Shown: positions 26,719-46,102 of the stretch, in pieces | Layout of the letters: each line of letters opens with the position of its first letter | Position numbering within the stretch: position 1 is the first letter of the stretch | Source: a virus | Direction: 5' to 3' (one strand) | Virus record (IMG/VR): IMGVR_UViG_3300021961_000073 | Location: 5,076-69,075 of that record | Length of the DNA stretch: 64,000 nucleotides | Program-made: the position numbers and the translations under genes | The notes under the pieces: generated by a model | The model's database searches: none | The model's input: only the letters and a program-made list of their open reading frames with translations | Told to the model about the DNA's origin: nothing

Positions 26719-29700
26719 ATGGTAAGCCAAGTAATTAAAGAGACTTTCAGAAGAAATTACGCAGACGATTACAGGGATAGTGACAACTACTATAAAATCC
26801 TGTTCAATTCTGGTAGGGCTTTGCAGCAAAGAGAATTAAATCAGCTGCAAACTATTATTAATAAAGATATTGAAGAATTTGGCAATAATGAATTTCATGC
26901 TGGTTCAGCTGTTTCAGGCGGAGCTCCTGCGCCTGAAACCTCTGTCCCTTTTATTAAATTAACGGGTCTTGGGGATTTAACAGCAGCTCAGTTAAGAAAT
27001 ACCGAATGGTTACAATCAGGATCAGAAGGTCTTGAATTAAGAATTGAATTTGCTACTGCTGCAACAGACACTGATCCTGCTACCATATTCGTAACATATA
27101 CAAGTAGTAATTCTCAAAGTACTACTGAACAGCTTGTAGCATCAGCAGGAAGAACCTTAACCTACAACGGATCAGCTGCTGCTTTAGTAGGGAAAACATT
27201 AACTATCCAATCCACAGATACTTCTTCTAATCCTGCTACGGGATTTGGAACTTTATATACGATCTCTGCTGGAAGATTCTTTGTTAATGGCCACTTTGTC
27301 TATTCAGATACACAAACTGTCGTTATTTCTAAATACACTAGAACACCTACTGCTGTAATTGGATGGTTAGTTACAGAATCGATCGTTAAGGTAGAAGATG
27401 ATGAAAATCTATACGATAATTCTGGTGCTAATTTAAATATTTCTGCCCCTGGGGCAGATCGATATAAAATAACCTTAACTTTAACTACAAAAGATTTGGT
27501 AGATTCTGATCAGTATTTTATACCGTTAGCAAATATGGAGAATGGATCAGTATATTCAGATCGAAATACTGCAGAATTAAACTTTGGGGATAAAGCTAAC
27601 GAAGACTTTTTTGCTATCCGGCACTATAAAACTCATGGAAATTTTAAGGTTGAAGGTGGAAGAGTAGACATACAATCTTCACCGACGGATGCTACTCAAT
27701 GGCAAGTGGATATACAACCCCTTTTGGCATTCTTAGAAGGTACCTTTATTAGAACAACTGGTAATATTCCTCTAACAACGCCTAAGCCTAGAACTACTAC
27801 TACTTTACAAAATGAGGCAACTACCGTTAGCTTTGGTAATTATATTATCTCAGATAATTTAAATGGTATTTTCAATTTTGAAGCCTTTGAAGAGATTAAT
27901 CTATATTCTGCTGTTACTGCAGGCGGTTCAGTATTAGGTACAGCAAAAGTTAGGGCTATTGATAAATTTGGAACAGACTATAGGATCTACCTCTTTGAAG
28001 TTGACCTAGGATCTAATAATTTCTCTCAAATCAGAAGTATAGGTAATAGTTCTACAGATTATGCTGATATTAAACTTCAAGGCGGCATAGCCAAGCTATA
28101 TGATCAACAAGAAAACAACCTTCTCATGCCGTTGCCTAGAACTAGGCCTTCTGCAGTTAGTGACGTAGTTATTACAGTTCAGAGAGTAGATGAAGTTACC
28201 GATGGCGATAACGACGGCACAATTTCTTTTAATACTGCCTCAGGTTACGTTGTTGACGATACTAGCTCTTGGATCGTAATCCGAACTGATACGGGCGCAG
28301 TAGTTACTGGATATAATACGAGTGGTTCCAGTGGTACCTCTGTAGTAATATCAGGTCTTCCGACTGGTACATTAACTTTCCGTGTAGTTACATATCAGCA
28401 ATCAACTGGATCAGTAGGAAGATCTAAAACTAAAACTTTAGTTAGTGGGGCTACTAAAACAGCAAGTCTATCATCTGGATCATTGGATCTAGATCACGTA
28501 GACATATATGCTCTTAATTCTGTTACGGTAGGTGGTGTAGACGTAACCGATGAATTTATATTCGATGATGGTCAAAGAGATAACTTCTATGATGTAGGTA
28601 ATATTACTTTAAAAGGTGGATCATCAGTAAGCTCTAGTGCTTCAGTTACGGTAAATTATGATTACTTTAGTCATAGTGGTACTGGTAATTTCTTCTCCGT
28701 AAGTAGTTACGGTGGGCAGGTTACTTATGAAAATATCCCAAGCCACCAACAAAAGAACGGTGAAAGAGTTAGTCTAAGAGATGTTTTAGACTTTAGACCA
28801 TCTAGAACACCAGGTGCTACTACCTTCGGAGAAAGATTTAAGTTACCGCAAAATGGCGATAACGTAACTGCTGATATTACCTATTACTTAGGAACTAGGG
28901 CAAGGGTATTTCTTACTAAAGATATGAGAGGAAATATCATACAAGGCCCTCCTGCATTAAATCCAGTACACGTAGACACTGGTGCAGAAACAATGACCAT
29001 TGCAGAGATTGATTTCGCACCATATGGATTGGATGATAAAGATTTTAAAATAAAGTATGTTGGTAATAGACGATATACTATGGCAGATATCGCTCAAATC
29101 GATCGCAGATTAGAGGATCTTGAAGAATTAACTTCTCTTACGATGTTAGAGCTTAATACTCGAAATAAATCTATTTTGGATTCTGATGGGCTAGATCGAC
29201 TTAAGTCCGGTATAACTGCAGATAACTTTACAGACCATTACCAATCAGATAAATGGCTTGAGAATATTCCGGGCAAAGCAGAGCGAGCTAATCCAGAATA
29301 TAGAGCTTCTATTGATTTTGTCAGAGGTGAATTAACTCCTAGAACCTTAGAAAATTCTATTGATCTAGTTTTTGATTCTGCTGACGGGGATAACAGTAAT
29401 GTAGTCTTAAAAGGCGATAATATTATGTTATCCTATACCCAAGAGGAATATAAATTCCAAAATAGTTTTTCTAGAGCAATTGAAGTAGCCCCTCAAGCCC
29501 TTCCAAAATTCGTTGGTCGGATTACACTATCTCCCGCATCTGATGTTTGGATCGATATAGAAAGATTACCTAAAAAGGTTATTACAGGAGATCCTAGAAT
29601 ATCTCAAGATCCAAATGATACTACAAACTGGGCTGGTACATCTTGGACTGGTATGAAAATATCAGATCTTTCAAAAGCACAATTTGGTGATATAGTATAT

Positions 29701-30483
29701 TCGGGCGCTGGAACCACGAGCAGTTACACCGAAACCAGACAAGATCAAAGCGGAGAAGATACTTATGACGTAACATATAAAGTTACAACGACGTCTACTC
29801 CTAAGTTTAAACTAACTGGTTCGACTACTGAAACTGAAACAATAGGCAAGGATGTCGTTAGAGCTAATATTAATATACCTATTTGTAGATCTAGGTTCAT
29901 TTCTTTTAAAGTTACAGGATTGAAACCTAATACTAGACACTATTTCTTCCTTAACATGGTTGCAGTAAATGATTGGATTTATTCTGCACCTGGTGATGGT
30001 GAATTTGTTAGAATGTCTAATCTAGGAAGAAATTCACCATATCTTGATGTAGGTAATACTTTTAAGGATCTTACAGAATTCCCATCTACCGGGGTTTATC
30101 CAGGTAAAACCTCTGCACACTTTACTAACGCTGCTGGTGAAATATCGGGTTATTTCTTGCTTCCCTCAACTGACGCAATAAATTTCCCTACCGGTACTCT
30201 TGGATTTGAAATTGCTGACGTAGATACGCATATGGCAATTCGTGATAATGCCTTCTCCAAAGGCTTTGCTGAATATACGGCTAGTGGAACATTAAGGCAA
30301 ATACAAGATGAAGAATTAACTACTAAGATATATCTAGTGGATTTAGATATAGAAACAGTTGAAACTGGTAGAAATAGGGTATACCCAAGATATGGTGGTG
30401 GTGACGGTGACGGAACCAGTACTGGTACTGGTTCTGGTGGCGTGTGCGGTTCTGTTGATGCTACAAATGGTGATGGATGGTAA
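26719..30483 (+). CDS. Large virion structural protein, VrlC/DUF4815-like (N-terminal part)
   Basis: Y.DDY...NYYKILFNSGRALQ.RELNQLQ, APGADRYKI, LRDVLDFRP, NRRYTM.DI..I..R. Confidence 0.8.
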   Translation: MVSQVIKETFRRNYADDYRDSDNYYKILFNSGRALQQRELNQLQTIINKDIEEFGNNEFHAGSAVSGGAPAPETSVPFIKLTGLGDLTAAQLRNTEWLQSGSEGLELRIEFATAATDTDPATIFVTYTSSNSQSTTEQLVASAGRTLTYNGSAAALVGKTLTIQSTDTSSNPATGFGTLYTISAGRFFVNGHFVYSDTQTVVISKYTRTPTAVIGWLVTESIVKVEDDENLYDNSGANLNISAPGADRYKITLTLTTKDLVDSDQYFIPLANMENGSVYSDRNTAELNFGDKANEDFFAIRHYKTHGNFKVEGGRVDIQSSPTDATQWQVDIQPLLAFLEGTFIRTTGNIPLTTPKPRTTTTLQNEATTVSFGNYIISDNLNGIFNFEAFEEINLYSAVTAGGSVLGTAKVRAIDKFGTDYRIYLFEVDLGSNNFSQIRSIGNSSTDYADIKLQGGIAKLYDQQENNLLMPLPRTRPSAVSDVVITVQRVDEVTDGDNDGTISFNTASGYVVDDTSSWIVIRTDTGAVVTGYNTSGSSGTSVVISGLPTGTLTFRVVTYQQSTGSVGRSKTKTLVSGATKTASLSSGSLDLDHVDIYALNSVTVGGVDVTDEFIFDDGQRDNFYDVGNITLKGGSSVSSSASVTVNYDYFSHSGTGNFFSVSSYGGQVTYENIPSHQQKNGERVSLRDVLDFRPSRTPGATTFGERFKLPQNGDNVTADITYYLGTRARVFLTKDMRGNIIQGPPALNPVHVDTGAETMTIAEIDFAPYGLDDKDFKIKYVGNRRYTMADIAQIDRRLEDLEELTSLTMLELNTRNKSILDSDGLDRLKSGITADNFTDHYQSDKWLENIPGKAERANPEYRASIDFVRGELTPRTLENSIDLVFDSADGDNSNVVLKGDNIMLSYTQEEYKFQNSFSRAIEVAPQALPKFVGRITLSPASDVWIDIERLPKKVITGDPRISQDPNDTTNWAGTSWTGMKISDLSKAQFGDIVYSGAGTTSSYTETRQDQSGEDTYDVTYKVTTTSTPKFKLTGSTTETETIGKDVVRANINIPICRSRFISFKVTGLKPNTRHYFFLNMVAVNDWIYSAPGDGEFVRMSNLGRNSPYLDVGNTFKDLTEFPSTGVYPGKTSAHFTNAAGEISGYFLLPSTDAINFPTGTLGFEIADVDTHMAIRDNAFSKGFAEYTASGTLRQIQDEELTTKIYLVDLDIETVETGRNRVYPRYGGGDGDGTSTGTGSGGVCGSVDATNGDGW

Positions 30484-30533: not shown

Positions 30534-32183
30534 ATGCCAGCAGTAATTCCAGTCCTTGATAGAGTATTATTTAATCCGATGGCACAATCTTTCTTTGTGC
30601 CAGATATGCCTGGAATATTTTTAACTAAGATTGATCTTTGGTTTCAAGCTAAAGGAACTCTACCTATTTCTATCGAGCTTAGAAAAGCTAGTGCAAAGGG
30701 TAATCCTAGTAGAAACGCTATTATACCATCGTCTGTTGTGACATTAGCTGCTGCCGATGTCGTGATAGCAGACGGAACAACAGCGGCAAATAGGCCTACT
30801 GATGGATCTGGCAGTTTTGCTAGCAATGCAACTACTTTTGAATTCGAAGAACCAGTTTTCTTAAAAGGTAATGACTTTTATGCTATAATTATTCGAACGA
30901 ATGCGGGTAAAGACTATAAAATCTGGTCTTCTTTCGAAGGTGACTTTGTTTTAGGTAGTGCAAGTGTTCGAGTAGGTACTACCATCGAACCTGGTATCTT
31001 ATATAGGGCTGGCAACGGTATAGAATACGTTCCTGAAAGAAATGCTGACCTTATGTTTAAGTTATATAGAGCAAAATTCACTGCTACATCGGGCGTGGCA
31101 GTACTTCATTCAAATGCACCTCCAAAAAAGAAATTACCAAATAATCCGTTTGTTACAACTAGTGGTGCAACCGGCGTTATTGTTAATCATCCCAATCATG
31201 GTTTCCAAGTAAATGATAGGGTTAATATTAGTGGTGTTACAGCAGCAGTAAATGGTATTGCAGCTGCTAATATAAATGGAACAAGGTTAATTACACGAGT
31301 AGATCCTTATGGATATAAATTTGTGGCAGGGAGTTCAGATACGGCTTCGTCCTCTGGTAGAGGTGGTGGATCAACAGTTTATGTTACTCAACAACTACAA
31401 TTCGATGCTATCAATCTTCAAATTGATACTTTAAACCCATTACAAAAGTCAGAATATTCATTTAATGTAGATACGACCTCAGGAAAATCTTATGCCTCTT
31501 TAACTGAAGCCCAATATGAGCAATTTACTGATCAGAGATTGCCTAATAAATCGAAATATAATTTCTCAGTGCCAAATGTAATCCTGAGTGATTCTAATGA
31601 AACTGGTGTTTGGGGCAATAATGGTACAGAATCTATGGAAGTTAGAGTGACTATGAGAAATGCAACAACAGATGATAAAATTAGTCCACTTATTGATATA
31701 CAAAGAGCCCATGCAATCTTATATAGCAACATAATTGATTATAACGATGCATCAGATAGTGATGAGGGTAATATTCTTTTAAATTACGTAGCCGAGACAG
31801 ATAAACGTGATGGCTCATCTATATCTAAACACGTTGCTAAAGAAGTAAAATTGGAAAGACCTTCTAATGGTTTAAAAATTATGTTTGGTGCTCACGTACC
31901 ATTAGAGGGGAGAATTGATACTTATTATAGAACTGTTGCTCCTGGTTCTGATGCAAACATCAGAAGTCTTCCTTGGATCGCTGCTAGTTACGATGTTGAA
32001 CCGCCGAAAGATCAGAATCCTAACAAGCTTAGGAGTTATGAAATTACTTTAGGCGGGGAATTTGCAAACACATTAGATGAATTTGATCGATATCAAGTAA
32101 AATTAGTATTGAATTCTAAATCTTCTTCAAAGGTTCCACGTGTAAGAGATCTCAGGACGATTGCTTTAGCAGTTGAGTCTTGA
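30534..32183 (+). CDS. Virion structural protein, VrlC-like C-terminal part
   Basis: NPMAQSFFV, FLTKIDLWF, T.F.FEEPVFL, DLMFKLYRAKF, HPNHG, VPRVRDLRTIALA. Confidence 0.75.
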   Translation: MPAVIPVLDRVLFNPMAQSFFVPDMPGIFLTKIDLWFQAKGTLPISIELRKASAKGNPSRNAIIPSSVVTLAAADVVIADGTTAANRPTDGSGSFASNATTFEFEEPVFLKGNDFYAIIIRTNAGKDYKIWSSFEGDFVLGSASVRVGTTIEPGILYRAGNGIEYVPERNADLMFKLYRAKFTATSGVAVLHSNAPPKKKLPNNPFVTTSGATGVIVNHPNHGFQVNDRVNISGVTAAVNGIAAANINGTRLITRVDPYGYKFVAGSSDTASSSGRGGGSTVYVTQQLQFDAINLQIDTLNPLQKSEYSFNVDTTSGKSYASLTEAQYEQFTDQRLPNKSKYNFSVPNVILSDSNETGVWGNNGTESMEVRVTMRNATTDDKISPLIDIQRAHAILYSNIIDYNDASDSDEGNILLNYVAETDKRDGSSISKHVAKEVKLERPSNGLKIMFGAHVPLEGRIDTYYRTVAPGSDANIRSLPWIAASYDVEPPKDQNPNKLRSYEITLGGEFANTLDEFDRYQVKLVLNSKSSSKVPRVRDLRTIALAVES

Positions 32184-33569: not shown

Positions 33570-35576
33570 ATGGCCGAAGTGCTACTTAAACTAGCAGATG
33601 CCAATGGTAACCTAAAAGGCATCACAACATCAGAGCAAGATTATCTTGCCTATCAAGCTGGATTACAGCTTGCTGATGCTGATAGCGCTGAGGTTGGATC
33701 GTTGACTAGATCAGCAACTGGATCGACCAGTATCGGTTCTTTTAGTGATACCGCATTCGATCAAGCTATCGGTACACATCCCGGAACTTCAATCACGACC
33801 AGTACTACAACTACTACAGTTTATCAGAAAACTGGTACTGCATCTGAGGCTGGTTCAGATTTTCATCGTCCAGTAGCCTTAATGGATGATACTGATACTA
33901 CTCCGCCACAAGATATTAAAGTGATGAATGATACAAGATTAAATACTCTTGTAAACAGCTTAATCAGCACCATTTTCACTAATGATTATCCTGGAACTTA
34001 TCGCTTAGGTACAAGTGCTCCAAGTGGCGATTATGCTACATATATTTCTGGTATCTTCACAGATACGCGTACAGATGGCACAAGTGTAACTTATAATCTT
34101 TATAAAAGAAATACGTATACACCTCCAACCGCAGTAAATCCTTTAAGAATTGCTAACACATTCGATTTAAAAGAAATGTCTGATGCTGAGATTAAGTACA
34201 CTCTCGGTCAGCGTGCTAAGACACAGATCATGTCAACTGGGGTTGGTAAGTATCAGTTAAGAAGCTCTGTACAAGGTGTACCATCAGATCCTGGTACATG
34301 GGTGGCAAAAGGTACTGCAACAGATACGAAAACCACTACTGCTGATGTAAATTATACTAGGACTTCACAAACAGATTATCAATCAAATTATGATGCGGCG
34401 TATATTCGCAACTACGAAGGAAACTATATTAATACCTATAGCAGAACCAGAACCTCTGCATATACTACAGATTATGTCGGATATTCTGGTGCATATGTAG
34501 CCACTTATATCAGTAACTATGAAGGCGACTATATCTCTAATTACGAAGGCGATTATACGGGAGCCAATTACGAAGCAGCATATGATGGCACTTTCTATGA
34601 GTCAGCATATGAAGGTGCTTTCTATGAGTCAGCATATGATGGCACTTTTTACGACGGTGCTGATTATCAAGCAGCATATGAAGGCGCTGATTTCCAAAGA
34701 ACTTCGTTCCTAACGTATCAAACAAATTATCAAGGAAACTATATAGGGGATTATCTTGGTAATTTCCAGGGAACATATGTAGGTGACCAAGGGTATACTC
34801 CATCGGTAAATTATCAGAGAACTAGGGTTACTACATTTATTAACTTCTTCAGTAATCCTATTTTTTACGGCGGAAGACTTCATGGATATTTTGGATCATA
34901 TGGAGGATATTTCGAAGGCAACTTCCTCGGGGATTACGTTGGTGTTCAAAATTTCCAAAGAACTAGTACAAGATCTAGATCTTCAACATATACAAATGTT
35001 CAAAACTACAATGGTCGTATTCTTTACTTTGGTGGAGTCACGGTTTTCTTTGCAGGTAATTATTTAGGAGACTTTGGTGCAAATACATATGATGGTGATG
35101 GGCCATCATTCGTAGGATCTGTTACTTCCATTTTCACTAGAACTTCAATAACGCCTTATACCGGAGATTATCAAGCTGGATATCTAGGTAACTATATAGG
35201 AAATTTTTTAACAGATTACCAAGGGACTTACCAAGGGACATATATCTCAAATTACGTAGGTGATTACATTTCTAATTACGTTGGGACATATCTCACGGAT
35301 TATGAGGGTACGTACATAACTGCCTATGAATCAGCCTACCAATCCGCCTACGAGTCTGCTTATGATGGGGATTATGTGGGCGATTACACTGGGGATTATA
35401 TAGCTGATTACGAAGGCAACTATGATAGAGACTTCGTGGGGGACTACGAAGCTGATTATATAGCCACATATATATCTAACTACACGGGAGATTATACCGG
35501 AGACTTTTCTGGAGAAACCATTCAAGCGCCCACTACAACTGTAGAAACGTATACTTTATACGTGAGGACTTCTTAG
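33570..35576 (+). CDS. Tetrapeptide-repeat fold-back fibre protein A (668 aa)
   Basis: ~260-aa base domain paralogous to 35592..37976, then Tyr/Gly-rich x-x-Y-x repeats, ends ETYTLYVRTS. Confidence 0.7.
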   Translation: MAEVLLKLADANGNLKGITTSEQDYLAYQAGLQLADADSAEVGSLTRSATGSTSIGSFSDTAFDQAIGTHPGTSITTSTTTTTVYQKTGTASEAGSDFHRPVALMDDTDTTPPQDIKVMNDTRLNTLVNSLISTIFTNDYPGTYRLGTSAPSGDYATYISGIFTDTRTDGTSVTYNLYKRNTYTPPTAVNPLRIANTFDLKEMSDAEIKYTLGQRAKTQIMSTGVGKYQLRSSVQGVPSDPGTWVAKGTATDTKTTTADVNYTRTSQTDYQSNYDAAYIRNYEGNYINTYSRTRTSAYTTDYVGYSGAYVATYISNYEGDYISNYEGDYTGANYEAAYDGTFYESAYEGAFYESAYDGTFYDGADYQAAYEGADFQRTSFLTYQTNYQGNYIGDYLGNFQGTYVGDQGYTPSVNYQRTRVTTFINFFSNPIFYGGRLHGYFGSYGGYFEGNFLGDYVGVQNFQRTSTRSRSSTYTNVQNYNGRILYFGGVTVFFAGNYLGDFGANTYDGDGPSFVGSVTSIFTRTSITPYTGDYQAGYLGNYIGNFLTDYQGTYQGTYISNYVGDYISNYVGTYLTDYEGTYITAYESAYQSAYESAYDGDYVGDYTGDYIADYEGNYDRDFVGDYEADYIATYISNYTGDYTGDFSGETIQAPTTTVETYTLYVRTS

Positions 35577-35591: not shown

Positions 35592-37976
35592 ATGCCTATA
35601 ACTCATATACCACTTCAACTGAAAGACGCATCCGGCAATCTGGAGATCATGAATGATTCTTCGGATCTGAATTATCTTGCGTACAGAGCTGGCATTTGGC
35701 TTTCTAATACTGCTGATTCTTCAGACGTTAGTCGTATAGGTTCTTCCGGTTCAGTTGCTGATGAGATCGGTTTACATAGTGATACAGTATATGATCAAGC
35801 TGTTGGTGCTCACAGTGCGCTATCGATTACGACTACGACTACTAAGATATATCAAAAAGATGGCAGCGCATCAGTATCAGATGCAGCTGGTTGGAGACGA
35901 CCAACTTATTGGAATAGTGGTATAGTAGAAATGGCTGATAGTGATTTATCAGTTTTAGGAGATAATCTAGCTGGTCGTATTTTTACCAATGATTATCCTG
36001 GAAGTTATAAACTTCAGTCTTCAAGCCCTGGTGCAGATTATACTGCAGTATTAACGAATATTTTTACTGATACTAGAACAGATGGTACTACCGTTAACTA
36101 CACATTATGGCAGAGAACTGCCATTTCTTCTGGTACGCCAACGGGTAAGACATACTTAAGAATTAAAGGAACTCAATCAGACGAAGGAAGTTCTTACTCT
36201 GGTACACAAGAAGCTACAGATGCTCAAGTCCAATATACTTTAGGTAAGACTGTAGGAAACAGGATTATGTCATCTGGGGTTGGGAAATACCAATTGCGCT
36301 CTTCTGCTCAAGGTGTCCCAACAGATCCTGGCACATGGGCATCTAAAGGTTCAGCTAGCGATACTCGTCAGGATGTAGGGCAAGTTAATTATACAAGGGA
36401 CGCTATAGAAAACTACACCCGTACAAGCCAGACAATTTATGTAGGTAACTACACTACAAATAGTACTGCTTTCTATACTAGAATTAGAACAAGTCTTTTC
36501 TTAAATAACTATACTCGTGCTTCTGCGATTACTTTCCAACAAAATTATACAAGAGCAGTTAACGTTGATTACACTCGAGACAGTACTCGTATAACAAACG
36601 TTGATTACACTCGCGACAGTACTCGTGACGCTCAGGAGAATTATACAACTAATTTTCAGCGTACCAGCACTCGTATAACAAACGTAAACTATACTCGTAA
36701 TAGTACTCGTGACGCTCAAGAGAATTATACCACAGCTTATACGCGTGATAGTACTAGGGTGTCAAACGTAAACTACACCAGAGATAGTACTCGTGACGCT
36801 CAGGAGAATTATACCACAGCTTATACTCGCGACAGTACTCGTATAACAAACGTTGATTATACTAGAAATAGTACTCGTGACGCTCAGGAGAATTATACTA
36901 CAGCTTATACTCGCGACAGTACTCGTATAACAAACGTTGATTATACTAGAAATAGTACTCGGCTTTCTCAACGGACAACATTTGTAAACTACACAAGACA
37001 AAGACAAACTAACTATACTCGTGAATCGAACGTAAACTATCAAAGAACTAGAGCTACAAATTATACGAGAAATAGTGCTGTAAATTTCCAAAGAATTAGC
37101 ACTCGCCAGCGCATCAGCTTCTTCAGTAATCCTATTTTTTACGGCGGAAGACTTCTTGGATATTTCGGAGGATATGGAGGTTATTTCCAGGGCAACTTCC
37201 TTGGCGACTTTGTAGGCGACTTTATAGGCGACTTCGTGGGCAACTTCCTTGGCGACTATGTAAGAGGATTTATAGGCGACTTCGTGGGCAACTTTGACGG
37301 TGATTATATTAGAGGATTTTTAGGGGATTACACAGGCGATTTTACGGGAAACTACATCAGAGGGTTTGATGGTAACTACGTTGGTAACTACGACAGGGAT
37401 TTCCTAGGCAATTATACAGGCGATTTTGCGGGAAACTACATCAGAGCGTTTGATGGTAACTACGTTGGTAACTACGACAGGGACTTTTTGGGAAATTATA
37501 CAGGTAACTTTATTGGAGACTACGTCAGAGGGTTTACTGGTAACTACGTTGGTAACTACGACAGGGACTTTTTGGGGAATTACACTGGGGATTACGTAGG
37601 CGACTATATAAGAGCGTTTGATGGTAACTACGTTGGTGATTTCATAGGAGATTACCTAGGTAATTATACTGGTAACTATACAGGTAACTATATAAGAGCG
37701 TTTACAGGAAATTACATAGGTAACTATATAGCAACGTATGAGGGAAATTATACGGCAGATTACCAGTCTAATTACATTGGTGATTACACTGGGGACTATG
37801 AAGCTGCATTTGAGGGTAATTACCAAAATGATTACTTAGGAGACTTTATCGGTAATTACACCGGGGATTATTTAGGAAACTTCGACGGCAACTATATTGG
37901 CGATTATTCTGCATCGACCATTTTAGGGACGTCGTCTGGAATAGAGGTATATACACTATACGTCAGAATATCATGA
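35592..37976 (+). CDS. Tetrapeptide-repeat fold-back fibre protein B (794 aa)
   Basis: Base domain, 61 R/T/N/Y-rich tetrapeptides, aromatic/Gly tip, 60 G-[DN]-[YF]-x tetrapeptides, ends EVYTLYVRIS. Confidence 0.75.
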   Translation: MPITHIPLQLKDASGNLEIMNDSSDLNYLAYRAGIWLSNTADSSDVSRIGSSGSVADEIGLHSDTVYDQAVGAHSALSITTTTTKIYQKDGSASVSDAAGWRRPTYWNSGIVEMADSDLSVLGDNLAGRIFTNDYPGSYKLQSSSPGADYTAVLTNIFTDTRTDGTTVNYTLWQRTAISSGTPTGKTYLRIKGTQSDEGSSYSGTQEATDAQVQYTLGKTVGNRIMSSGVGKYQLRSSAQGVPTDPGTWASKGSASDTRQDVGQVNYTRDAIENYTRTSQTIYVGNYTTNSTAFYTRIRTSLFLNNYTRASAITFQQNYTRAVNVDYTRDSTRITNVDYTRDSTRDAQENYTTNFQRTSTRITNVNYTRNSTRDAQENYTTAYTRDSTRVSNVNYTRDSTRDAQENYTTAYTRDSTRITNVDYTRNSTRDAQENYTTAYTRDSTRITNVDYTRNSTRLSQRTTFVNYTRQRQTNYTRESNVNYQRTRATNYTRNSAVNFQRISTRQRISFFSNPIFYGGRLLGYFGGYGGYFQGNFLGDFVGDFIGDFVGNFLGDYVRGFIGDFVGNFDGDYIRGFLGDYTGDFTGNYIRGFDGNYVGNYDRDFLGNYTGDFAGNYIRAFDGNYVGNYDRDFLGNYTGNFIGDYVRGFTGNYVGNYDRDFLGNYTGDYVGDYIRAFDGNYVGDFIGDYLGNYTGNYTGNYIRAFTGNYIGNYIATYEGNYTADYQSNYIGDYTGDYEAAFEGNYQNDYLGDFIGNYTGDYLGNFDGNYIGDYSASTILGTSSGIEVYTLYVRIS
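36560..36960 (+). repeat. 84-bp (28-aa) tandem repeat, N-arm
   Basis: Unit approx RITNVDYTRDSTRDAQENYTTAYTRDST, ~4.5 copies, with near-identical DNA in the last copies. Confidence 0.9.
37345..37720 (+). repeat. 84-bp (28-aa) tandem repeat, C-arm
   Basis: Unit approx GNYIRAFDGNYVGNYDRDFLGNYTGDFA; ggtaactacgttggtaactacgacaggga recurs at 84-bp spacing. Confidence 0.9.
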
Positions 37977-37985
37977 GGATGACTA

Positions 37986-38447
37986 ATGGAAAAATCATGG
38001 AAGTACCCGTTTTGGGAAAATTATCAAAAAGATCGAATTACTGCAAGACTTTTAATTAAACATAACGACGGTAAAGAGACCTGGTCTACTGCTACTATCA
38101 GTAAATATGATGCAAAGGGTAATCTTAACCCAGATTTTCAAGCGTGTGTGGACCAAAATACAATCGAAGCTATAGACAAGCACACTGCTGAACGGCAAGA
38201 GCGCCATAAGCAAAGAAGAGAAGACGATAAAAAAGCAGATAAGGAAAGAAAACAAGCTAAAAAGCTTGAAGAGCTTTTTAATGATAAATTAGAGATCTTT
38301 GAAATTGATATAGTTAAAAATTCTAAGAATAGACTACTTAAGTCTAAAATCAGGAAAGCCAAAAACCGTTATGAAATGATTGGCTTTTTATCAATATTAA
38401 TGAAAGAAGAATATGATGCCGAAACAGCAGCAGCAGCAGCCGAGTAG
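37986..38447 (+). CDS. Hypothetical protein, candidate fibre assembly chaperone
   Basis: Directly follows the repeat fibres; charged coiled coil and LFNDKLEIFEI.IVKNSKNR.LKSKIRKAK. Confidence 0.55.
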   Translation: MEKSWKYPFWENYQKDRITARLLIKHNDGKETWSTATISKYDAKGNLNPDFQACVDQNTIEAIDKHTAERQERHKQRREDDKKADKERKQAKKLEELFNDKLEIFEIDIVKNSKNRLLKSKIRKAKNRYEMIGFLSILMKEEYDAETAAAAAE

Positions 38448-39210
38448 AGGATTTGTAGTAGTAGCTTCTAAAAAAATTGCTTTCTACTACTCTGCTATAA
38501 ATTTAATAGAATCCATATTAGATTATATGCCTGATGCACAGTTTGCCTTTTTCTGCGAACCGTGGATGAGAGATCATAGGTGCGAAGATCCCAACATTCA
38601 ATTATTTGACTGTGGCGATCATATCAGGGAAAAGCTTTACGGCATGGCTAACTCACCGTTTGACTATACCTTCTACATTGACGCGGACTGTGAATGTTGT
38701 CATGAAGATATTGTTACTATTTGGGATCAATTTGAAGGTGATGATATTAAATTTGTAGAACTTACTAAGGATGAAGTAGCACAAAGATCTTTTGTAGAAG
38801 TAAATGCTAGAATACCTAGTATTGATGCAGATATTGATTTAAGACTTTGTGGTGGTGTTTGTTTATATGATAATAGTAATCCCCTGGTAAAAGAATTTAT
38901 AAGAGACTGGTATGAAAAATATCTTATTCAAGAGGCAATAGGTGAGGCGAAAGAATATGGGCTGCCTAATGTATGGTTTCCTCCTGACACTCCAAGATCT
39001 ATGTTAAGATGGGATCAATTTACTTTATGGTGGATGGTTAATATGGAAGATAAATATAAAGATCTTAAAATAGGAATATTTAAGGAAAATTATAGATGGA
39101 ACTGGTTTACTAGTTTCAGAATAGGGTCTGACGGTAAACATAGATTAGTAGATAAACCACCTGTGATTGTCCACAATTCTGCAAATATGAATAAGGATGC
39201 TGCATACTAA
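38413..39210 (+). CDS. GT-A fold glycosyltransferase (nucleotide-diphospho-sugar transferase-like)
   Basis: GFVVVAS, KLYGMANSPFDYTFYIDAD (DxD), GGVCLY, WDQFTLW, RWNW, VIVH. Confidence 0.75.
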   Translation: MMPKQQQQQPSRGFVVVASKKIAFYYSAINLIESILDYMPDAQFAFFCEPWMRDHRCEDPNIQLFDCGDHIREKLYGMANSPFDYTFYIDADCECCHEDIVTIWDQFEGDDIKFVELTKDEVAQRSFVEVNARIPSIDADIDLRLCGGVCLYDNSNPLVKEFIRDWYEKYLIQEAIGEAKEYGLPNVWFPPDTPRSMLRWDQFTLWWMVNMEDKYKDLKIGIFKENYRWNWFTSFRIGSDGKHRLVDKPPVIVHNSANMNKDAAY

Positions 39211-39893
39211 TGACGATAATGAGGAAGATACAACTGAATAATAAAGAAGTGTTAGAATCTTTAAACAAATATTCTTCACTTATTCAGGAATCTTATCACA
39301 ATGGTAATATGGATAAAGCATTTATGTTGAATTCTGATAGACATACCCGTGACAGATGGATAGCTGACGATTACCGGGATCGAATCATACAAAGATTCGA
39401 TCAACATGAGGGCTACCCAGAAAGTATGAGGTGTTATCACGGTACTGCTCCCTCTAATGGTAGCGATAAAATGGATCGTTTTAAAGATTCGAAAGTAGCA
39501 TATCCTATTAGAGAAGCTGCAGTAGAATTAAATTCAGAAATGATGACTTCTCTTTCAGCTAAAAGAAACGCGCTTTGTGCAACCTACCCGCCGGGTGGAT
39601 GGATTAGCTGGCACAATAATGCAAATGCTTCTGGTTATAATATTCTTTTTACATGGTCTGAAAATGGAAATGGATGGTTTAGATATTATGATTTAGAAAA
39701 AAAAGAAAATGTAACGATCTATGATAAGCCAGGTTGGCAGTGTAAAATGGGATACTTTGGGCCTTATGATAACCCAGATAGTCTTTGCTATCACTGTGCA
39801 TCAACTGAGGATCTTAGGATTACTGTAGCTTACATGTTTATCGAAGCAGATAACTTCTGGGAAGAAGTAGTCTATGACATTGAAAACGGTTAA
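39210..39893 (+). CDS. 2OG-Fe(II)/cupin-like dioxygenase
   Basis: YPPGGWISWHNN...CYHCA....RITVAY (HxN...H...R). Confidence 0.6.
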   Translation: MTIMRKIQLNNKEVLESLNKYSSLIQESYHNGNMDKAFMLNSDRHTRDRWIADDYRDRIIQRFDQHEGYPESMRCYHGTAPSNGSDKMDRFKDSKVAYPIREAAVELNSEMMTSLSAKRNALCATYPPGGWISWHNNANASGYNILFTWSENGNGWFRYYDLEKKENVTIYDKPGWQCKMGYFGPYDNPDSLCYHCASTEDLRITVAYMFIEADNFWEEVVYDIENG

Positions 39894-40629
39894 TGTCGTA
39901 TGCGTTAAATGGGGTAAAACCTATACCTACGAACATGTAAATAGACTTTTTAAAATGGTTAAGAGGAATCTTTCGATCCCTTTTACATTCTATTGTTTAA
40001 CCGAAGATCCTGAAAATTTAAACAACGAAATAGTACCAATTCTCCTAAACGAAGAATTATGTTTAGAAGGATTTTGGTGGAAGATGTGTATGTTCCAAAG
40101 ATCCTTATATAAGGAAGATTTACCCACATTATATTTTGACATTGACACAATTATACAAAAAGATATTACTTCATTCTTCGATAATTTTCAAGAAGATAAA
40201 ATTAGAATACCTTATCTTGGTGCATATCCAGAAGGAGATGCTTATAAAAATCCTGCAGTAGTAAATTCTTCAATTATGCTATTTAGACCTAGCAAATCAG
40301 AAAAAATATTTAATTCATTTATACAGGATGCTGATTACAATATAATTGAATATCAGGGCGTTTGTCGATATTTATGGGGCAAACATAGTGACAATTTAAT
40401 ATATTATAATTATATGAATCATTTTTATTCTGCGATATCAGTTCCCTATGTAGCGAAGCTATATAGAGATGGTATGGAAAAATATAAAGGAAAAGTAAAA
40501 TCTAAAATTCGTCGAGGCTCTGTAGCATATTTTTATATAGAAGATGTTCCAGTCTGTCTCCTAAACGGAGCTACCAGAGATGGTGTCCTAGATCAACTTT
40601 ATGAGAAATTTTCTTCGTATTACGATTAA
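39874..40629 (+). CDS. Glycosyltransferase (GT-A)
   Basis: VVCVKWG..Y...HVNRL..MV.RNL..PF.FYCLTED, WWK..MF, LYFDID, NSSIM. Confidence 0.8.
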   Translation: MTLKTVNVVCVKWGKTYTYEHVNRLFKMVKRNLSIPFTFYCLTEDPENLNNEIVPILLNEELCLEGFWWKMCMFQRSLYKEDLPTLYFDIDTIIQKDITSFFDNFQEDKIRIPYLGAYPEGDAYKNPAVVNSSIMLFRPSKSEKIFNSFIQDADYNIIEYQGVCRYLWGKHSDNLIYYNYMNHFYSAISVPYVAKLYRDGMEKYKGKVKSKIRRGSVAYFYIEDVPVCLLNGATRDGVLDQLYEKFSSYYD

Positions 40630-43462: not shown

Positions 43463-46102
43463 ATGCCTACAGTTGTTCAATTTAGAAGAGGTACTACGGC
43501 ACAGAACGATGCCTTTACTGGTGCGGCCGGTGAGATTAGTGTAGATACGGACCTACTAGTTCTTAGGGTCCACGACGGCTCGACCCAAGGTGGTCATGCC
43601 CTGATGGATGCTAGCTCATCACAAATTATTACTAATAAAAGATACGGAAGTCACTTACTCCCTTCTGCAGATAGTACCTATGATCTTGGTGATTCAGCAA
43701 TAAAATGGAGATCATTATACCTTTCCGGTAATACAATATACCTTGGTAACATTCGATTATCTGCTGTCGATGGATCCTTACAGATCTTAGATAGTAATGG
43801 TGTAACAGGTACTACTAGTTTTGATCTTGGACAGAATTCCACTTCAGACCTATCTGAAGGAACTAACTTATATTATACGACTGCAAGAGCAGATTCGGCT
43901 TTTGATGTACGGTTAGCAACTAAAACAACGACAAACGTAGCTGAAGGGTCTAACTTATATTATACATCTGCAAGAGCAGATTCGGATGCTAAAAATGCTA
44001 TTAGTGTATCTGGTGATCTTAGCTATAATCCAGCAACAGGCGTCATTAGTTTAAATGTAGAGGCACAATATACTCAAGCTAATTTTGAATCAGATTTAGG
44101 TGCAGCTATTGCCGGTGGTACTGGTATTACCTACGATTCTTCTACAGATACAATTAGCATTACAAACACAGGCGTTTCTGCAGGAACATACGGTTCTACT
44201 ACAGCAATTCCGGTATTCACAGTTAATGCTCAAGGTCAGATAGATTCAGCTGGTACAGTTGCAGTAGCAGGTGTAGATTCTGCACATTATAATACATCAA
44301 CTGGTGCATTTACAATTTATACTGCAGATGGTGGTAGTTTAAGTGACACCATTACTTTAGCACCATTTACTACAACAGACGTTACATTTGCTAAAATCAC
44401 AGGTGATTCAGCTTCAGTCGGTCAAGTTAACTTCCGAACAAACTGGGTTGATAGCCATATCCCAGTAACCGAAGGCGCTGTTTGGTACGATCCGTATCAT
44501 AAGAACCTAAACTACTACGCTGATGTCGATCATCCAATCGAAATCGGTATGCAGATGGTTGAAAGGGTTTACAATAATACTGGATCAACAATTGCTAAAG
44601 GTGCACCACTCTACTATTCAGGCAACTATACAAACGATGCTGGACAAGAATCTCCAACGGTAGCTCTAGCAGATGCTACATCAGCAAGTGCATATAACGT
44701 TCAAGGTCTTGCTGGCGAGGCTATAGCAAATGGCTCATACGGTCTTATCGTAGTTGCAGGTGTTATTGATGGATTCGATACTTCTGGACTAACAGCAGGT
44801 CAAAACTTCTTCGTTGGTCTTACACCAGGTGCAGTACAAAATGCTCCTCCGGCTTATCCTAACTATCCAATGTGTCTTGGTTGGGTTATTAAATCAGATG
44901 CTACTTCTGGTAAGGTAATTATCAATCAACAGAATCACTCAGTCAACACATTCCGTGTTCAAGGTAATACGCACATCGGTGCGGATCTTAGAATCGACGG
45001 AGACTTAACTGTTGTTGGTTCACAGATTATTACCTCTACTCAAAACATTTCAATTGGTGGTAATATTCAATATCTGAATGCTGGTAATAGTATCGGCGAA
45101 GCTGGTACAACATTCGTTGGCAGCGGTTTAGATGATGCGTTTTTCTCAGGTCATTATTCTGGAGATTCTGCATCTAAGAGCTTCTTCGTAAAGATCGACG
45201 CAACTGGAACCCCAGATACGTTTGAATGGGGATATGATTCATCAATAGGTACACAGGCAACTGGCATAGCTATTACTGGCTCAGCTCAAATCCTAGACAG
45301 TGCATATGGTATTAGCATCGACTTCGGTGCAACAACTGGTCACACCACTGGTGATAAATGGACTGGTACAGCTACTGCAATAGATATTGATACTGGTATA
45401 TTCTCTAACAGACATACTGGTACAGATTACACTCACGTCGGTTTATTCTTCGACGTATCAGAGAATAAATGGACGTTCTTAAACGATTACGAGCCAGAGC
45501 CGGAAACAACCATTAACCTTGGTGCAGCAGGTACAGTACTTGGTGCTGTTAAAGCAGCATCCTTTGAAGGTGCATTAACTGGTAACGTAACTGGTAATGC
45601 AAGCACTGCAACGATCTTGGCAACCGGTAGAACAATCGGTATGACAGGTGACGTTACTTGGACATCCGCTTCATTTAACGGCAGTGGTAACGTTACCGGA
45701 ACATCCACACTGGCAACAGTTAACTCAAACGTTGGATCGTTTGGATCATCTTCAGCTGTTCCAGCAATTACTGTTAACGCTAAAGGTTTAATAACAGCTG
45801 TTACTGCTACTAGCGTCGATCACGATGCTCTTACAAACTTCGTAGCTAACGAACATATCGACCACAGTGGAGTTACTCTTACAGCAGGTAAAGGATTAAG
45901 TGGCGGTGGTACGATCGCAGCTTCAAGAACATTTAATATTGATTCAGCTGAGCTTACTTCTACATTTGGTGCTACTATCTTTACTGATATTAAAACAAGA
46001 GATGGCGCAGGGTCTGGATTAGATGCTGATACACTCGACGGTCAACAAGGCACTTACTATCGAATAGACGTATACGATGCATCAGGCACATTGCTGAACT
46101 GA
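43463..46102 (+). CDS. Long tail fibre protein with Mtd_N-like N-terminus
   Basis: [42 protein letters not shown] repeats, [12 protein letters not shown]-terminal [10 protein letters not shown]. Confidence 0.8.

What the first reader, a model, noticed from the sequence alone, without database searches (positions are those of the whole stretch)
35592..37976. A mirror-image protein: two ~240-aa tetrapeptide arms in exact antiparallel register, a candidate giant fold-back hairpin appendage
Seen in sequence: after a ~264-aa base domain come 61 uninterrupted tetrapeptides rich in R/T/N/Y (VNYT, RDST, RDAQ...), a ~25-aa aromatic/Gly tip (SFFSNPIFYGGRLLGYFGGYGGYFQ), then 60 uninterrupted mostly G-[DN]-[YF]-x tetrapeptides. 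Counting outward from the tip, N-arm V-[DN]-Y-x units at 7, 11, 15, 22, 29, 36 and 43 match the exceptional C-arm R-[GA]-F-x units at exactly 7, 11, 15, 22, 29, 36 and 43. N-arm TAYT at 18, 25, 32 matches C-arm RDFL at 18, 25, 32. N-arm Arg units mostly face C-arm Gly units, every C-arm Arg unit faces a non-Arg unit, and the arms carry opposite charge. The insert sits between DT and YTLYVR, the position of a short loop in an earlier internal repeat of the base domain (FTDTRTDGTTVNYTLWQR). Inference: the chain runs out and folds back as a very long antiparallel beta-ribbon (up to ~80 nm if fully extended) presenting the tip as a receptor probe. That is unlike the parallel trimeric T4 fibres.
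Basis: partly seen in the sequence, partly recalled or inferred. Interest (0 to 1): 0.92.

Follow-up and report, generated by a model that had tools for sequence, protein, structure and literature searches.

The report
Fold-back repeat fibre of marine phage
A marine T4-like phage gene encodes a fibre whose shaft seems to be one protein chain running out and back on itself for about 250 residues each way, a design shared by hundreds of uncharacterised phage proteins and not yet seen in any solved structure.

Summary
ORF 35592-37976 (794 aa) has a 264-aa base, 61 N-arm and 60 C-arm tetrapeptides and a 25-aa tip. Of 42 registers tried, only the mirror register at shift 0 gives no Arg/Arg clash and places all 10 C-arm Arg units opposite aromatic, non-Arg N-arm units. 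There is no DNA inverted repeat; each arm carries its own 84-nt tandem array.

The protein belongs to a large unnamed family: 330 clusters, no Pfam hit, and Phage C48C1 as the only hit in the phage-record collection searched. Members share the base domain and a near-invariant C-terminal strand, ETYTLYVR.

The mirror rule holds across the family. 99 of 165 strong N-half repeat arrays have a same-period partner at the mirrored distance; the null mean is 11. Close relatives show paired equal-length indels more often than chance, but many lone indels remain.

AlphaFold2 models the base confidently as three beta-beta-alpha-hairpin units. It pairs strands 249-283 with 756-792 and fails on the arms. 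The base resembles MABP beta-prisms at Z about 7.

The fold-back is well supported. The extended ribbon, the oligomeric state and the receptor function are inferred. Other notes on this same window had already flagged these features; the one look-up by sequence found no look-alike in another genome.

The parts
35592..37976 (+). Whole CDS, 794 aa (P0001), member of an unnamed phage fibre family
   Evidence: 330 clusters found with the base domain alone
35592..36383 (+). Base domain, aa 1-264. It has three beta-beta-alpha-hairpin units (helices 23-39, 116-132, 210-228; hairpins 56-67/79-89, 150-161/167-175, and 249-283 with 756-792)
   Evidence: AlphaFold2 pLDDT above 90 over most of aa 1-270. 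Best fold matches are MABP-type beta-prisms, Z 7.2, 7.1, 6.2 and 5.3, with the next row at 2.5. The same four lead with a second model
36384..37115 (+). N arm (outgoing), aa 265-508, 61 tetrapeptides. Arg 36, Thr 53, Gly 1; net charge +15
36569..36961 (+). 84-nt (7-unit, 28-aa) tandem array in the N arm, 4.7 copies
37116..37190 (+). Tip, aa 509-533, rich in aromatics and Gly, with one Arg and one Pro. The palindrome F516-Y517-G518...G523-Y524-F525 is centred at i+j = 1041
   Evidence: The 38 nt at 37118-37155 are identical to 34844-34881 in the paralogue
37191..37910 (+). C arm (returning), aa 534-773, 60 tetrapeptides G/R-[DN]-[YF]-x. Gly 49; net charge -25
37327..37703 (+). 84-nt tandem array in the C arm, 4.5 copies, mirroring the array in the N arm
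37911..37973 (+). Return segment, aa 774-794, ending in the family's near-invariant strand (here EVYTLYVR). It re-enters the base domain beside aa 249-270
   Evidence: pLDDT above 90 for aa 770-794 and strand 756-792; the invariant and near-invariant columns at aa 785-792 of alignment A1
33570..35576 (+). Paralogue A, 668 aa (P0003), immediately upstream. It has the same base domain and return strand, with several shorter out-and-back units
   Evidence: Two complete family genes stand in tandem in 17 of 73 related loci
37986..38447 (+). Conserved 153-aa partner gene (P0004), charged and of unknown function
   Evidence: A 130-170-aa ORF follows the last family gene in 42 of 73 loci, and 41 of those 42 are homologous to P0004 (E at most 4.7e-20). 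No Pfam or PHROG hit

Best explanation
This is a fibre protein of a marine T4-like myovirus, and it probably serves host recognition. An N-terminal domain of about 260 aa is built from three beta-beta-alpha-hairpin units and resembles a MABP-type beta-prism. It probably anchors the protein on the virion.

The third hairpin of that domain has been stretched enormously. The chain leaves the domain after Asp257-Thr258 and runs out for about 250 residues as an Arg/Thr/Asn/Tyr tetrapeptide arm. It turns at an aromatic, Gly-rich tip and runs back for about 250 residues as a Gly-[Asp/Asn]-[Tyr/Phe]-x arm that lies antiparallel and in register with the first. It then re-enters the base domain as the conserved strand ETYTLYVR.

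The most consistent residue register is i+j = 1041. That register puts an Arg opposite an aromatic in 42 rungs, Gly opposite a small residue, Asn/Asp opposite Asn/Asp, and Thr opposite Ile/Val/Leu.

Length changes by tandem duplication of blocks of 4n residues, and a change tends to be matched in the other arm. The distal turn, or in relatives a globular module inserted there, is the displayed and fast-changing binding element.

Shown: the mirror register, its conservation in the family, and the pairing at the base of the hairpin in the AlphaFold2 model. Inferred: the extended beta-ribbon geometry (about 80-85 nm at the usual 0.33 nm per residue, a figure from my own knowledge), the anchoring role of the base, presence in the virion, and receptor binding.
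For: Mirror register within the protein:
- It is unique among 42 registers tried, with 0 Arg/Arg clashes.
- All 10 C-arm Arg units face N-arm units with an aromatic at position 3 (p = 1.1e-4).
- It is not a DNA palindrome: 0 inverted repeats, and each arm has its own 84-nt array.

Family-wide evidence:
- 204 of 246 stored proteins end with the return strand.
- 99 of 165 strong N-half arrays have a same-period partner within 25 aa of the mirrored distance. The null mean is 11.2 and the maximum 23 in 1000 shuffles; a translation control gives 42.
- Long members show several nested mirrored pairs of different periods, for example L042_7001 and L038_7001.
- 32 of 107 indels of at least 8 aa in 113 close pairs form same-sign, equal-length mirrored pairs. 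The null mean is 8.1 and the maximum 24 in 2000; a translation control gives 8. Examples are 36 and 38 aa in P0073 against P0175, each 86 residues from its end by the fixed offsets (92 and 82), and 20 and 20 aa in P0190 against P0064.
- The N arm is more basic than the C arm in 149 of 211 members.

Structure prediction:
- AlphaFold2 pairs strands 249-283 and 756-792 (sums 1041 and 1039) with high confidence next to the base domain.
- The same holds in the 397-aa homologue P0061, strands 238-272 and 359-395.
- The tip palindrome and 42 Arg:aromatic pairs with 0 Arg:Arg pairs occur at i+j = 1041.
- There is no Pro in 484 arm residues.

Context:
- The gene lies between baseplate-wedge genes plus a DUF4815 protein and the neck genes.
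- In pelagimyophages the stretch between the VrlC gene and gp14 is called the host recognition cluster (passages of PMC7029224). That DUF4815 marks VrlC is my recollection.
- Tips vary: the tip motif occurs in 6 of 280 members, and one homologue carries an FG-GAP propeller.
Against: - No predictor gives the arms a structure. AlphaFold2 pLDDT is about 35 for aa 280-762 and below 50 for aa 270-359 of P0061.
- 38 of 107 indels are lone and off-centre. The clearest case is a 32-aa tandem block present in P0203 and P0185 but absent from P0244, with no partner anywhere.
- 66 of 165 strong arrays have no partner under my test.
- A crude comparison of the first uninterrupted run in each arm correlates only moderately (Spearman 0.38; 56 of 133 within 12 aa, against a null of 33).
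- The beta-prism match is only Z 5-7, and Foldseek found nothing at E of 0.001 or below.
- There are no proteomic or imaging data for presence in the virion.
- The one hit in the phage-record collection, C48C1, has no host on record.
- The array copy numbers were not confirmed independently.
Confidence: 0.65

Rival explanations
1. The chain folds back, but the shaft is a homo-oligomer. The likeliest form is a trimer whose three hairpins make a six-stranded antiparallel tube like the needle of T4 gp37. Each arm may then also pair with a neighbour's arm, not only with its own.
For: Phage fibres are usually trimers (my own knowledge). The gp37 needle is a fold-back, six-stranded antiparallel structure (passages read in PMC6957217 and PMC7291167). 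At i+j = 1041 one face of the ribbon carries Thr:Ile/Val/Leu and Asn/Asp:Asn/Asp pairs, which could form a core. A mirror register fits own-chain and swapped pairing equally well.
Against: The base domain is itself a pseudo-threefold single chain, and only one of its three hairpins is extended. The arms have no His, so gp37-type HxH iron sites are absent. There is no sequence relation to any solved chain at E of 1 or below apart from chance-level rows.
Confidence: 0.22
2. The two arms are paired, but the paired ribbon is not straight. It coils or zig-zags into a compact body, so the appendage is far shorter than 80 nm.
For: A lone two-stranded ribbon of 250 rungs has no precedent that I know of. 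Relatives have inserts of up to about 2000-3000 aa, which would give implausibly long straight fibres. Some members have mirrored kinks, with NP-type breaks opposite GP-type breaks in P0061 and P0037 (my reading of the sequences printed).
Against: Super-repeat periods differ within one protein (12, 16, 20, 24, 28 and 44 aa), which does not fit a solenoid of fixed turn size. P0001 has 61 and 60 units without a single phase break or Pro outside the tip.
Confidence: 0.1
3. The arms are low-complexity, largely disordered linkers or independent parallel repeats, and the mirror pattern is a by-product of repeat evolution.
For: AlphaFold2 gives very low confidence and no secondary structure for the arms. 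Tandem arrays arise easily by slippage.
Against: Slippage in one array cannot set the copy number, period and position of a second array 750 nt away. The mirror relation recurs in 99 of 165 arrays across diverged members, against a null of 11, and in paired indels. The tetrapeptide phase is unbroken for 240 residues in each arm, and 60 of 60 C-arm units have an aromatic at position 3.
Confidence: 0.03

Closest known systems
Needle (domains D10-D11) of the T4 long tail fibre protein gp37
   Same: The chain leaves a proximal domain, runs to a distal receptor-binding tip and returns, so the out and back strands lie antiparallel. It belongs to a T4-type phage and needs helper proteins to assemble. 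(Passages read in PMC6957217, and PMC7291167.)
   Different: gp37's needle is short: the whole crystallised part spans residues 811-1026. It is trimeric and held by seven irons on His residues. Here each arm has about 250 residues, is made of tetrapeptide repeats and has no His. The base is a different fold, with T4 gp11 scoring only Z 2.4, and there is no sequence similarity to any solved chain. The oligomeric state is unknown.
MABP (MVB12-associated beta-prism) domains, including that of perforin-2/MPEG1 with its elongated beta-hairpin
   Same: These are the best structural matches of the base domain in two independent models (Z 7.2, 7.1, 6.2, 5.3 and Z 7.1, 6.9, 6.0, 5.0, with 112-124 residues aligned). 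In MPEG1 one hairpin of the prism is described as an 'extraordinary elongated' hairpin whose basic and hydrophobic tip binds membranes (passages read in PMC6753088). Here too one hairpin is elongated and ends in an aromatic tip with one Arg.
   Different: Z stays below 8, Foldseek finds nothing and there is no Pfam hit. The phage domain has three extra helices. Its hairpin is about ten times longer or more (my estimate) and is built from repeats. Lipid binding was not tested.
The 3347-aa hypothetical protein of Phage C48C1 (WJE88074.1, Kyanoviridae)
   Same: It is the only hit to the base domain in the phage-record collection searched (E 3e-38). It has the same base domain, the same C-terminal ETYTLYVR strand and the same 153-aa gene downstream. 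It also has a mirrored 12-aa array pair, at 235 residues from the start of the insert and 212 from its end.
   Different: It is four times longer and has several globular modules between the repeat arms. It is annotated only as hypothetical.
Tetrapeptide (G-[ND]-[VL]-T)n region in the S-RIM2 cyanophage 'structural protein'
   Same: It has a four-residue repeat beginning Gly-Asn/Asp and sits in a T4-like marine phage fibre protein.
   Different: There is no shared base domain or return strand. The match is 20% of the query at 35% identity and falls within the repeats only. I saw no Arg-rich partner arm in the printed sequence.

Membership tests
Unnamed phage family defined here (beta-prism-like base + insert + ETYTLYVR return strand) | Homology of the N-terminal domain of about 260 aa | tested here: met
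   phmmer with aa 1-264 alone: 330 clusters at E of 0.001 or below and 139 at 1e-30 or below, with matches spanning query residues about 5-262
Unnamed phage family defined here (beta-prism-like base + insert + ETYTLYVR return strand) | C-terminal return strand [ET]-x-Y-T-L-Y-V-R within the last 14 residues | tested here: met
   P0001 ends ...IEVYTLYVRIS. 204 of 246 stored proteins carry the motif. T788 and Y790 are invariant in alignment A1
Unnamed phage family defined here (beta-prism-like base + insert + ETYTLYVR return strand) | Mirror-related repeat arms in the insert | tested here: met
   P0001. Family: 99 of 165 arrays against a null of 11.2
MABP beta-prism fold | Structural superposition on solved MABP domains | tested here: inconclusive
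   Z 7.2, 7.1, 6.2, 5.3 and Z 7.1, 6.9, 6.0, 5.0, clearly above the next rows (2.5 and 2.9) but under the Z 8 that the tool advises. Foldseek gave no match at E of 0.001 or below
MABP beta-prism fold | Sequence-profile membership | tested here: not met
   No Pfam family at E of 1 or below. No PDB chain by profile at E of 1 or below other than one unrelated row
MABP beta-prism fold | Binding of acidic lipids through the hairpin tip | not testable with these tools
   Needs a liposome or lipid-strip assay
T4 gp37-type needle | HxH motifs that coordinate iron along the shaft | tested here: not met
   0 His in the 484 arm residues and in the tip
T4 gp37-type needle | Sequence or fold relation to gp37, or to the gp10/gp11/gp12 collar | tested here: inconclusive
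   No gp37 row in the sequence searches. T4 gp11 scores only Z 2.4 over 49 residues. The arms themselves could not be modelled, so their fold could not be compared
T4 gp37-type needle | Homotrimer | not testable with these tools
   Needs biophysics or cryo-EM
Pentapeptide-repeat or other fixed-turn beta-solenoids | Constant repeat length matching one face or turn (5 residues for pentapeptide repeats) | tested here: not met
   The basic period is 4 residues throughout. Super-periods vary between 12 and 44 aa within single proteins. No Pfam repeat family matched
Collagen-like triple helix | Gly every third residue | tested here: not met
   In the C arm Gly comes every fourth residue, and the N arm has a single Gly

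The most novel reading that the evidence does not exclude
The shaft is a single polypeptide folded once into a free-standing two-stranded antiparallel beta-ribbon, tens of nanometres long here and perhaps hundreds in relatives. It would be stabilised by an Arg-aromatic ladder on one face, and its length would be set by paired duplications of 4n-residue blocks. That would be a new class of protein fibre, used by abundant marine T4-like phages as a thin 'fishing line' that carries interchangeable binding tips.
Probability: 0.4. Interest if true: 0.92.

Novelty: new variant of a known kind. Interest (0 to 1): 0.8.

Why it matters
If the model holds, it describes a fibre design not represented among solved structures and one that AlphaFold2 could not model here. 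The shaft would be built from one chain paired with itself, with its length encoded twice and kept in step.

It would give a function to a large unannotated family. The family has 330 clusters at 50% identity and 309 relatives in viral contigs. In this window the gene lies in the stretch that a pelagimyophage paper calls the host recognition cluster.

The paired-repeat rule could serve two purposes. It is a sequence-only signal for finding fold-back structures, and it suggests a way to build length-tunable scaffolds that display binding modules.

The shared 38-nt tip cassette in the two paralogues points to the part most likely to set host specificity.

Tried and rejected
- DNA palindrome as the source of the mirror: rejected. 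No inverted repeat of 20 nt or more lies in the gene.
- Homology to cultured cyanophage fibres: rejected. The 63 Synechococcus phage records among the 66 matches (the 29 listed are all S-RIM2) match about 20% of the query, within the repeats. The base domain alone hits only C48C1.
- Close relatives of P0001, wanted for a direct test of paired copy-number change: none found. The best is 38% identical, and there is no close locus in viral contigs.
- Foldseek against the PDB and BFVD: no match at E of 0.001 or below.
- ESM Atlas: best scores 0.85, all unnamed clusters. These are leads only.
- Complex prediction with three copies of aa 429-613 returned 'no answer' (score 0.00, controls not run). 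This is no evidence either way on oligomerisation.
- The look-up of sequencing runs and read laying: no RNA holder is listed. Three DNA runs hold at least half of the sampled words, but only as short contigs. No listed piece spans the repeat arrays and no indel rows were reported. So there is no independent check of copy number and no information on expression.
- Literature: searches for 'cyanophage' + 'tetrapeptide repeat', cyanomyovirus/cryo-EM/fiber, T4-like cyanophage/structural protein/repeats/fibre, 'C48C1', pelagimyophage + tail fiber and two-stranded/beta-ribbon/phage/fiber/hairpin repeats turned up no description of this family. I saw listings only, except for the passages named elsewhere in this report. 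Supplementary files were not opened and could hold virion proteomics that bear on presence in the particle.
- My first-run length test is noisy and adds little.
- The first automated indel count dropped 43 of 113 pairs because my boundary pattern failed. One search repeats it on all 113.
Full report
**What is there.**
The ORF 35592-37976 on the + strand encodes 794 aa. The tip string of the finding lies at aa 509-533. Cutting outward from it in fours gives 61 N-arm units (aa 265-508) and 60 C-arm units (aa 534-773).

The C arm is strictly periodic. Position 3 is Tyr or Phe in 60 of 60 units. Position 1 is Gly in 45 and Arg in 10. Position 2 is Asn or Asp in 51.

The N arm has Arg at position 1 in 32 of 61 units, Thr at position 4 in 35, and Tyr or Phe at position 3 in 28. 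The two arms together hold no Pro, Lys, His, Cys, Met or Trp in 484 residues. The N arm has one Gly and the C arm 49.

**Is the mirror real?**
There is one omission: N-arm V-[DN]-[YF] units also occur at 3, 46 and 61, where the facing C-arm unit has no Arg.

I scanned 21 mirror and 21 parallel registers. Only the mirror register at shift 0 gives:
- no Arg/Arg clash;
- 7 V.Y:R.F matches;
- 3 TAYT:RDFL matches;
- 42 of 60 rungs with exactly one Arg-first unit.

All 10 C-arm Arg units face N-arm units that lack Arg at position 1 (p = 1.7e-4) and carry an aromatic at position 3 (p = 1.1e-4).

The pattern does not come from the DNA. The gene has no inverted repeat. Each arm has its own 84-nt tandem array, 36569-36961 with 4.7 copies and 37327-37703 with 4.5 copies, and the two arrays differ in sequence. 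Two separate arrays with the same period, about the same copy number and mirrored positions point to selection on the protein.

**The family.**
Pfam finds nothing, and PHROGs gives only weak hits to families of unknown function within the repeats.

The base domain alone (aa 1-264) finds 330 clusters at 50% identity, 139 of them at E of 1e-30 or below, with lengths from 244 to 4046 aa. 204 of 246 stored proteins end with the same strand, consensus ETYTLYVR.

The only hit in the phage-record collection is a 3347-aa hypothetical protein of Phage C48C1. No relative is closer than 38% identity.

In viral contigs, 309 stretches encode relatives. In the 73 loci with a complete family gene:
- 17 have two complete family genes in tandem, as in this window (33570-35576 and 35592-37976);
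- 42 are followed by an ORF of 130-170 aa, and 41 of those 42 are homologous to the window's 153-aa ORF at 37986-38447.

**Does the mirror rule hold in the family?**
I took 211 family proteins that were non-redundant by shared 6-mers and detected tandem arrays with periods of 12-64 aa. Of 165 strong arrays in the N half of the insert, 99 have an array of the same period in the C half at the mirrored distance, within 25 aa. The lengths are usually similar.

Taking the partner arrays from a random other protein gives a mean of 11.2 and a maximum of 23 in 1000 trials. A translation control in place of the mirror gives 42.

Long members show several nested pairs in mirrored order. In L042_7001 the periods 12, 44, 12, 28, 12 and 20 start 124, 132, 323, 461, 578 and 680 residues from the beginning of the insert; their partners end 111, 140, 309, 446, 567 and 666 residues before its end.

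I also examined 113 pairs of close relatives (at least 65% identity) and found 107 indels of 8 aa or more in the insert:
- 32 form same-sign, equal-length, mirrored pairs. Random positions give a mean of 8.1 and a maximum of 24 in 2000 trials; a translation control gives 8.
- 37 lie in the central (tip) region.
- 38 are lone and off-centre.

The 16 paired rows are not independent; I estimate about nine separate events.

Clear examples, each with its distances from the two ends of the insert by the fixed offsets:

| Pair | N-arm indel | C-arm indel | Distances from the ends |
|---|---|---|---|
| P0073 vs P0175 | 36 aa | 38 aa | 86 and 86 |
| P0190 vs P0064 | 20 aa | 20 aa | 101 and 106 |
| P0182 vs P0058 | 16 aa | 16 aa | -2 and 21 |
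| P0202 vs P0062 | 8 aa | 8 aa | 34 and 31 |
| P0003 (window paralogue) vs P0009 | 14 aa | 12 aa | 96 and 93 |

The clearest exception is a 32-aa tandem block present in P0203 and P0185 and absent from P0244, with no partner. In P0203 the two arms carry matched 16-aa arrays, so P0244 may be a real mismatch or a collapsed assembly.

Two weaker trends agree. The N arm is more basic than the C arm in 149 of 211 members. The first uninterrupted runs of the two arms correlate (Spearman 0.38).

**Structure.**
AlphaFold2 was run with an alignment of 121 sequences. It models aa 1-270 and 770-794 with pLDDT mostly above 90, as three units of two short strands, a helix and a hairpin.

The third hairpin is formed by strands 249-283 and 756-792. 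The model then loses all confidence (pLDDT about 35 for aa 280-762). A 397-aa homologue behaves the same way, with strands 238-272 and 359-395.

The strand ends sum to 1041 and 1039. The tip contains the palindrome F516-Y517-G518-G519-R520 / L521-L522-G523-Y524-F525, which is centred at i+j = 1041.

At that register the arms give 42 Arg:aromatic pairs, 0 Arg:Arg, 28 Gly:small, 31 Asn/Asp:Asn/Asp and 29 beta-branched pairs out of 241. Neighbouring registers give far fewer.

So the AlphaFold2 pairing at the base, the unit count and the tip symmetry agree within two residues over about 250 rungs. The residue-level register remains an inference.

The second unit's short hairpin (aa 158-175, FTDTRTDGTTVNYTLWQR) aligns with DT(257-258) and YTLYVR(787-792).

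**Fold of the base.**
The wide structural search puts four MABP-type beta-prism domains first: Mp2Ba1, a Photorhabdus MACPF protein, human MVB12B and murine perforin-2 P2. They score Z 7.2, 7.1, 6.2 and 5.3, and the next row scores 2.5.

The independent model of P0061 gives the same four, at Z 7.1, 6.9, 6.0 and 5.0, with the next row at 2.9. The tool warns that Z under 8 is common, and Foldseek found nothing. I treat this as a likely shared fold, not as membership.

In MPEG1 one hairpin of this prism is described as extraordinarily elongated, and it binds membranes through a basic and hydrophobic tip (passages of PMC6753088). That is a useful analogy for a hairpin that has grown out of a prism.

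Some homologues carry a globular insert of about 150-300 aa (my estimate from the alignment offsets), apparently in the first hairpin's loop. One carries an FG-GAP propeller, which I take to lie in the insert. The distal loops therefore appear to be display sites.

**Genomic setting.**
The major capsid protein is 67% identical to that of C48C1 and about 60% to those of the Methylophilales phage Melnitz and Pelagibacter phage HTVC008M. The phage is therefore a marine T4-like myovirus of unknown host.

The gene lies downstream of baseplate-wedge genes and of two ORFs matching phrog_358, one of which carries DUF4815. It lies upstream of the neck genes.

A pelagimyophage study names the stretch between the VrlC gene and gp14 the host recognition cluster, rich in tail fibres and glycosyltransferases (passages of PMC7029224). 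That DUF4815 marks VrlC is my recollection.

The tip shares 38 identical nucleotides with the upstream paralogue (34844-34881 and 37118-37155). Yet the motif occurs in only 6 of 280 family proteins. This fits a fast-changing, exchangeable binding element.

**How it probably works.**
The base domain anchors the protein. One of its hairpins is extended by tetrapeptide repeats into a long antiparallel pair of strands. The distal turn or module makes first contact with the host. Length is altered by block duplications, which persist when matched in the other arm.

The fold-back is shown as far as sequence can show it. The extended two-stranded geometry, the oligomeric state, the site of attachment and the ligand are inferred.

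The main open alternative is a trimeric six-stranded tube like the gp37 needle. gp37's His-iron sites are absent here.

**Novelty.**
I found no description of this family in the searches listed under Tried and rejected. It is a phage host-recognition fibre, which is a known kind, built on a shaft principle that is not among solved structures. If the ribbon proves to be a free-standing single-chain hairpin, it would be a new class of protein fibre.

Noticed in passing
34844-34881 and 37118-37155: An identical 38-nt stretch encoding FFSNPIFYGGRL, within about 90 nt of high similarity, is shared by the tips of the two otherwise diverged paralogues. It suggests gene conversion or strong constraint on the tip. 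The close homologue P0009 of paralogue A has a different tip.
   Followed up: partly
37986-38447: A 153-aa charged protein with no Pfam or PHROG hit is a conserved downstream partner of the family. It is homologous to 41 of the 42 small ORFs found downstream in the 73 related loci. C48C1 also has an ORF of the same length directly behind its family gene. It is a candidate assembly helper or adaptor.
   Followed up: partly
26719-30483 and 30534-32183: Two adjacent ORFs of 1254 and 549 aa match successive parts of one PHROG profile (phrog_358, positions 577-1393 and 1765-2055 of 2056). The first carries DUF4815. Together they look like a large VrlC-like protein (the name is recalled) encoded in two pieces.
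   Followed up: no
43463-46102: The 879-aa protein starts with a Major tropism determinant N-terminal domain (Mtd_N, E 5.8e-11). I did not look for a diversity-generating retroelement.
   Followed up: no
38413-40629: Three overlapping genes follow the 153-aa ORF. The last has weak glycosyltransferase signals (phrog_1962 at E 2.9e-11; Pfam Nucleotid_trans below its cut-off). The arms hold 25 N-x-S/T sequons against 2 in the base, so modification of the fibre is worth testing.
   Followed up: partly
L001:8001-18044 (Phage C48C1): The 3347-aa homologue contains a long exact direct duplication, which I judge at about 70 aa (starting KTRHRSYLYYSTD...), inside one globular module. It may be a real duplication or an assembly artefact.
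   Followed up: no
proteins P0133, P0142, P0151, P0145, P0130: Some family members carry a globular insert of roughly 150-300 aa early in the base domain, apparently in the loop of the first hairpin. That would make it a second display site.
   Followed up: partly
L002:1417-7155 (Synechococcus phage S-RIM2): An unrelated 1912-aa structural protein has two runs of (G-[ND]-[VL]-T)n tetrapeptides separated by a short break. I did not test whether that region also folds back.
   Followed up: no
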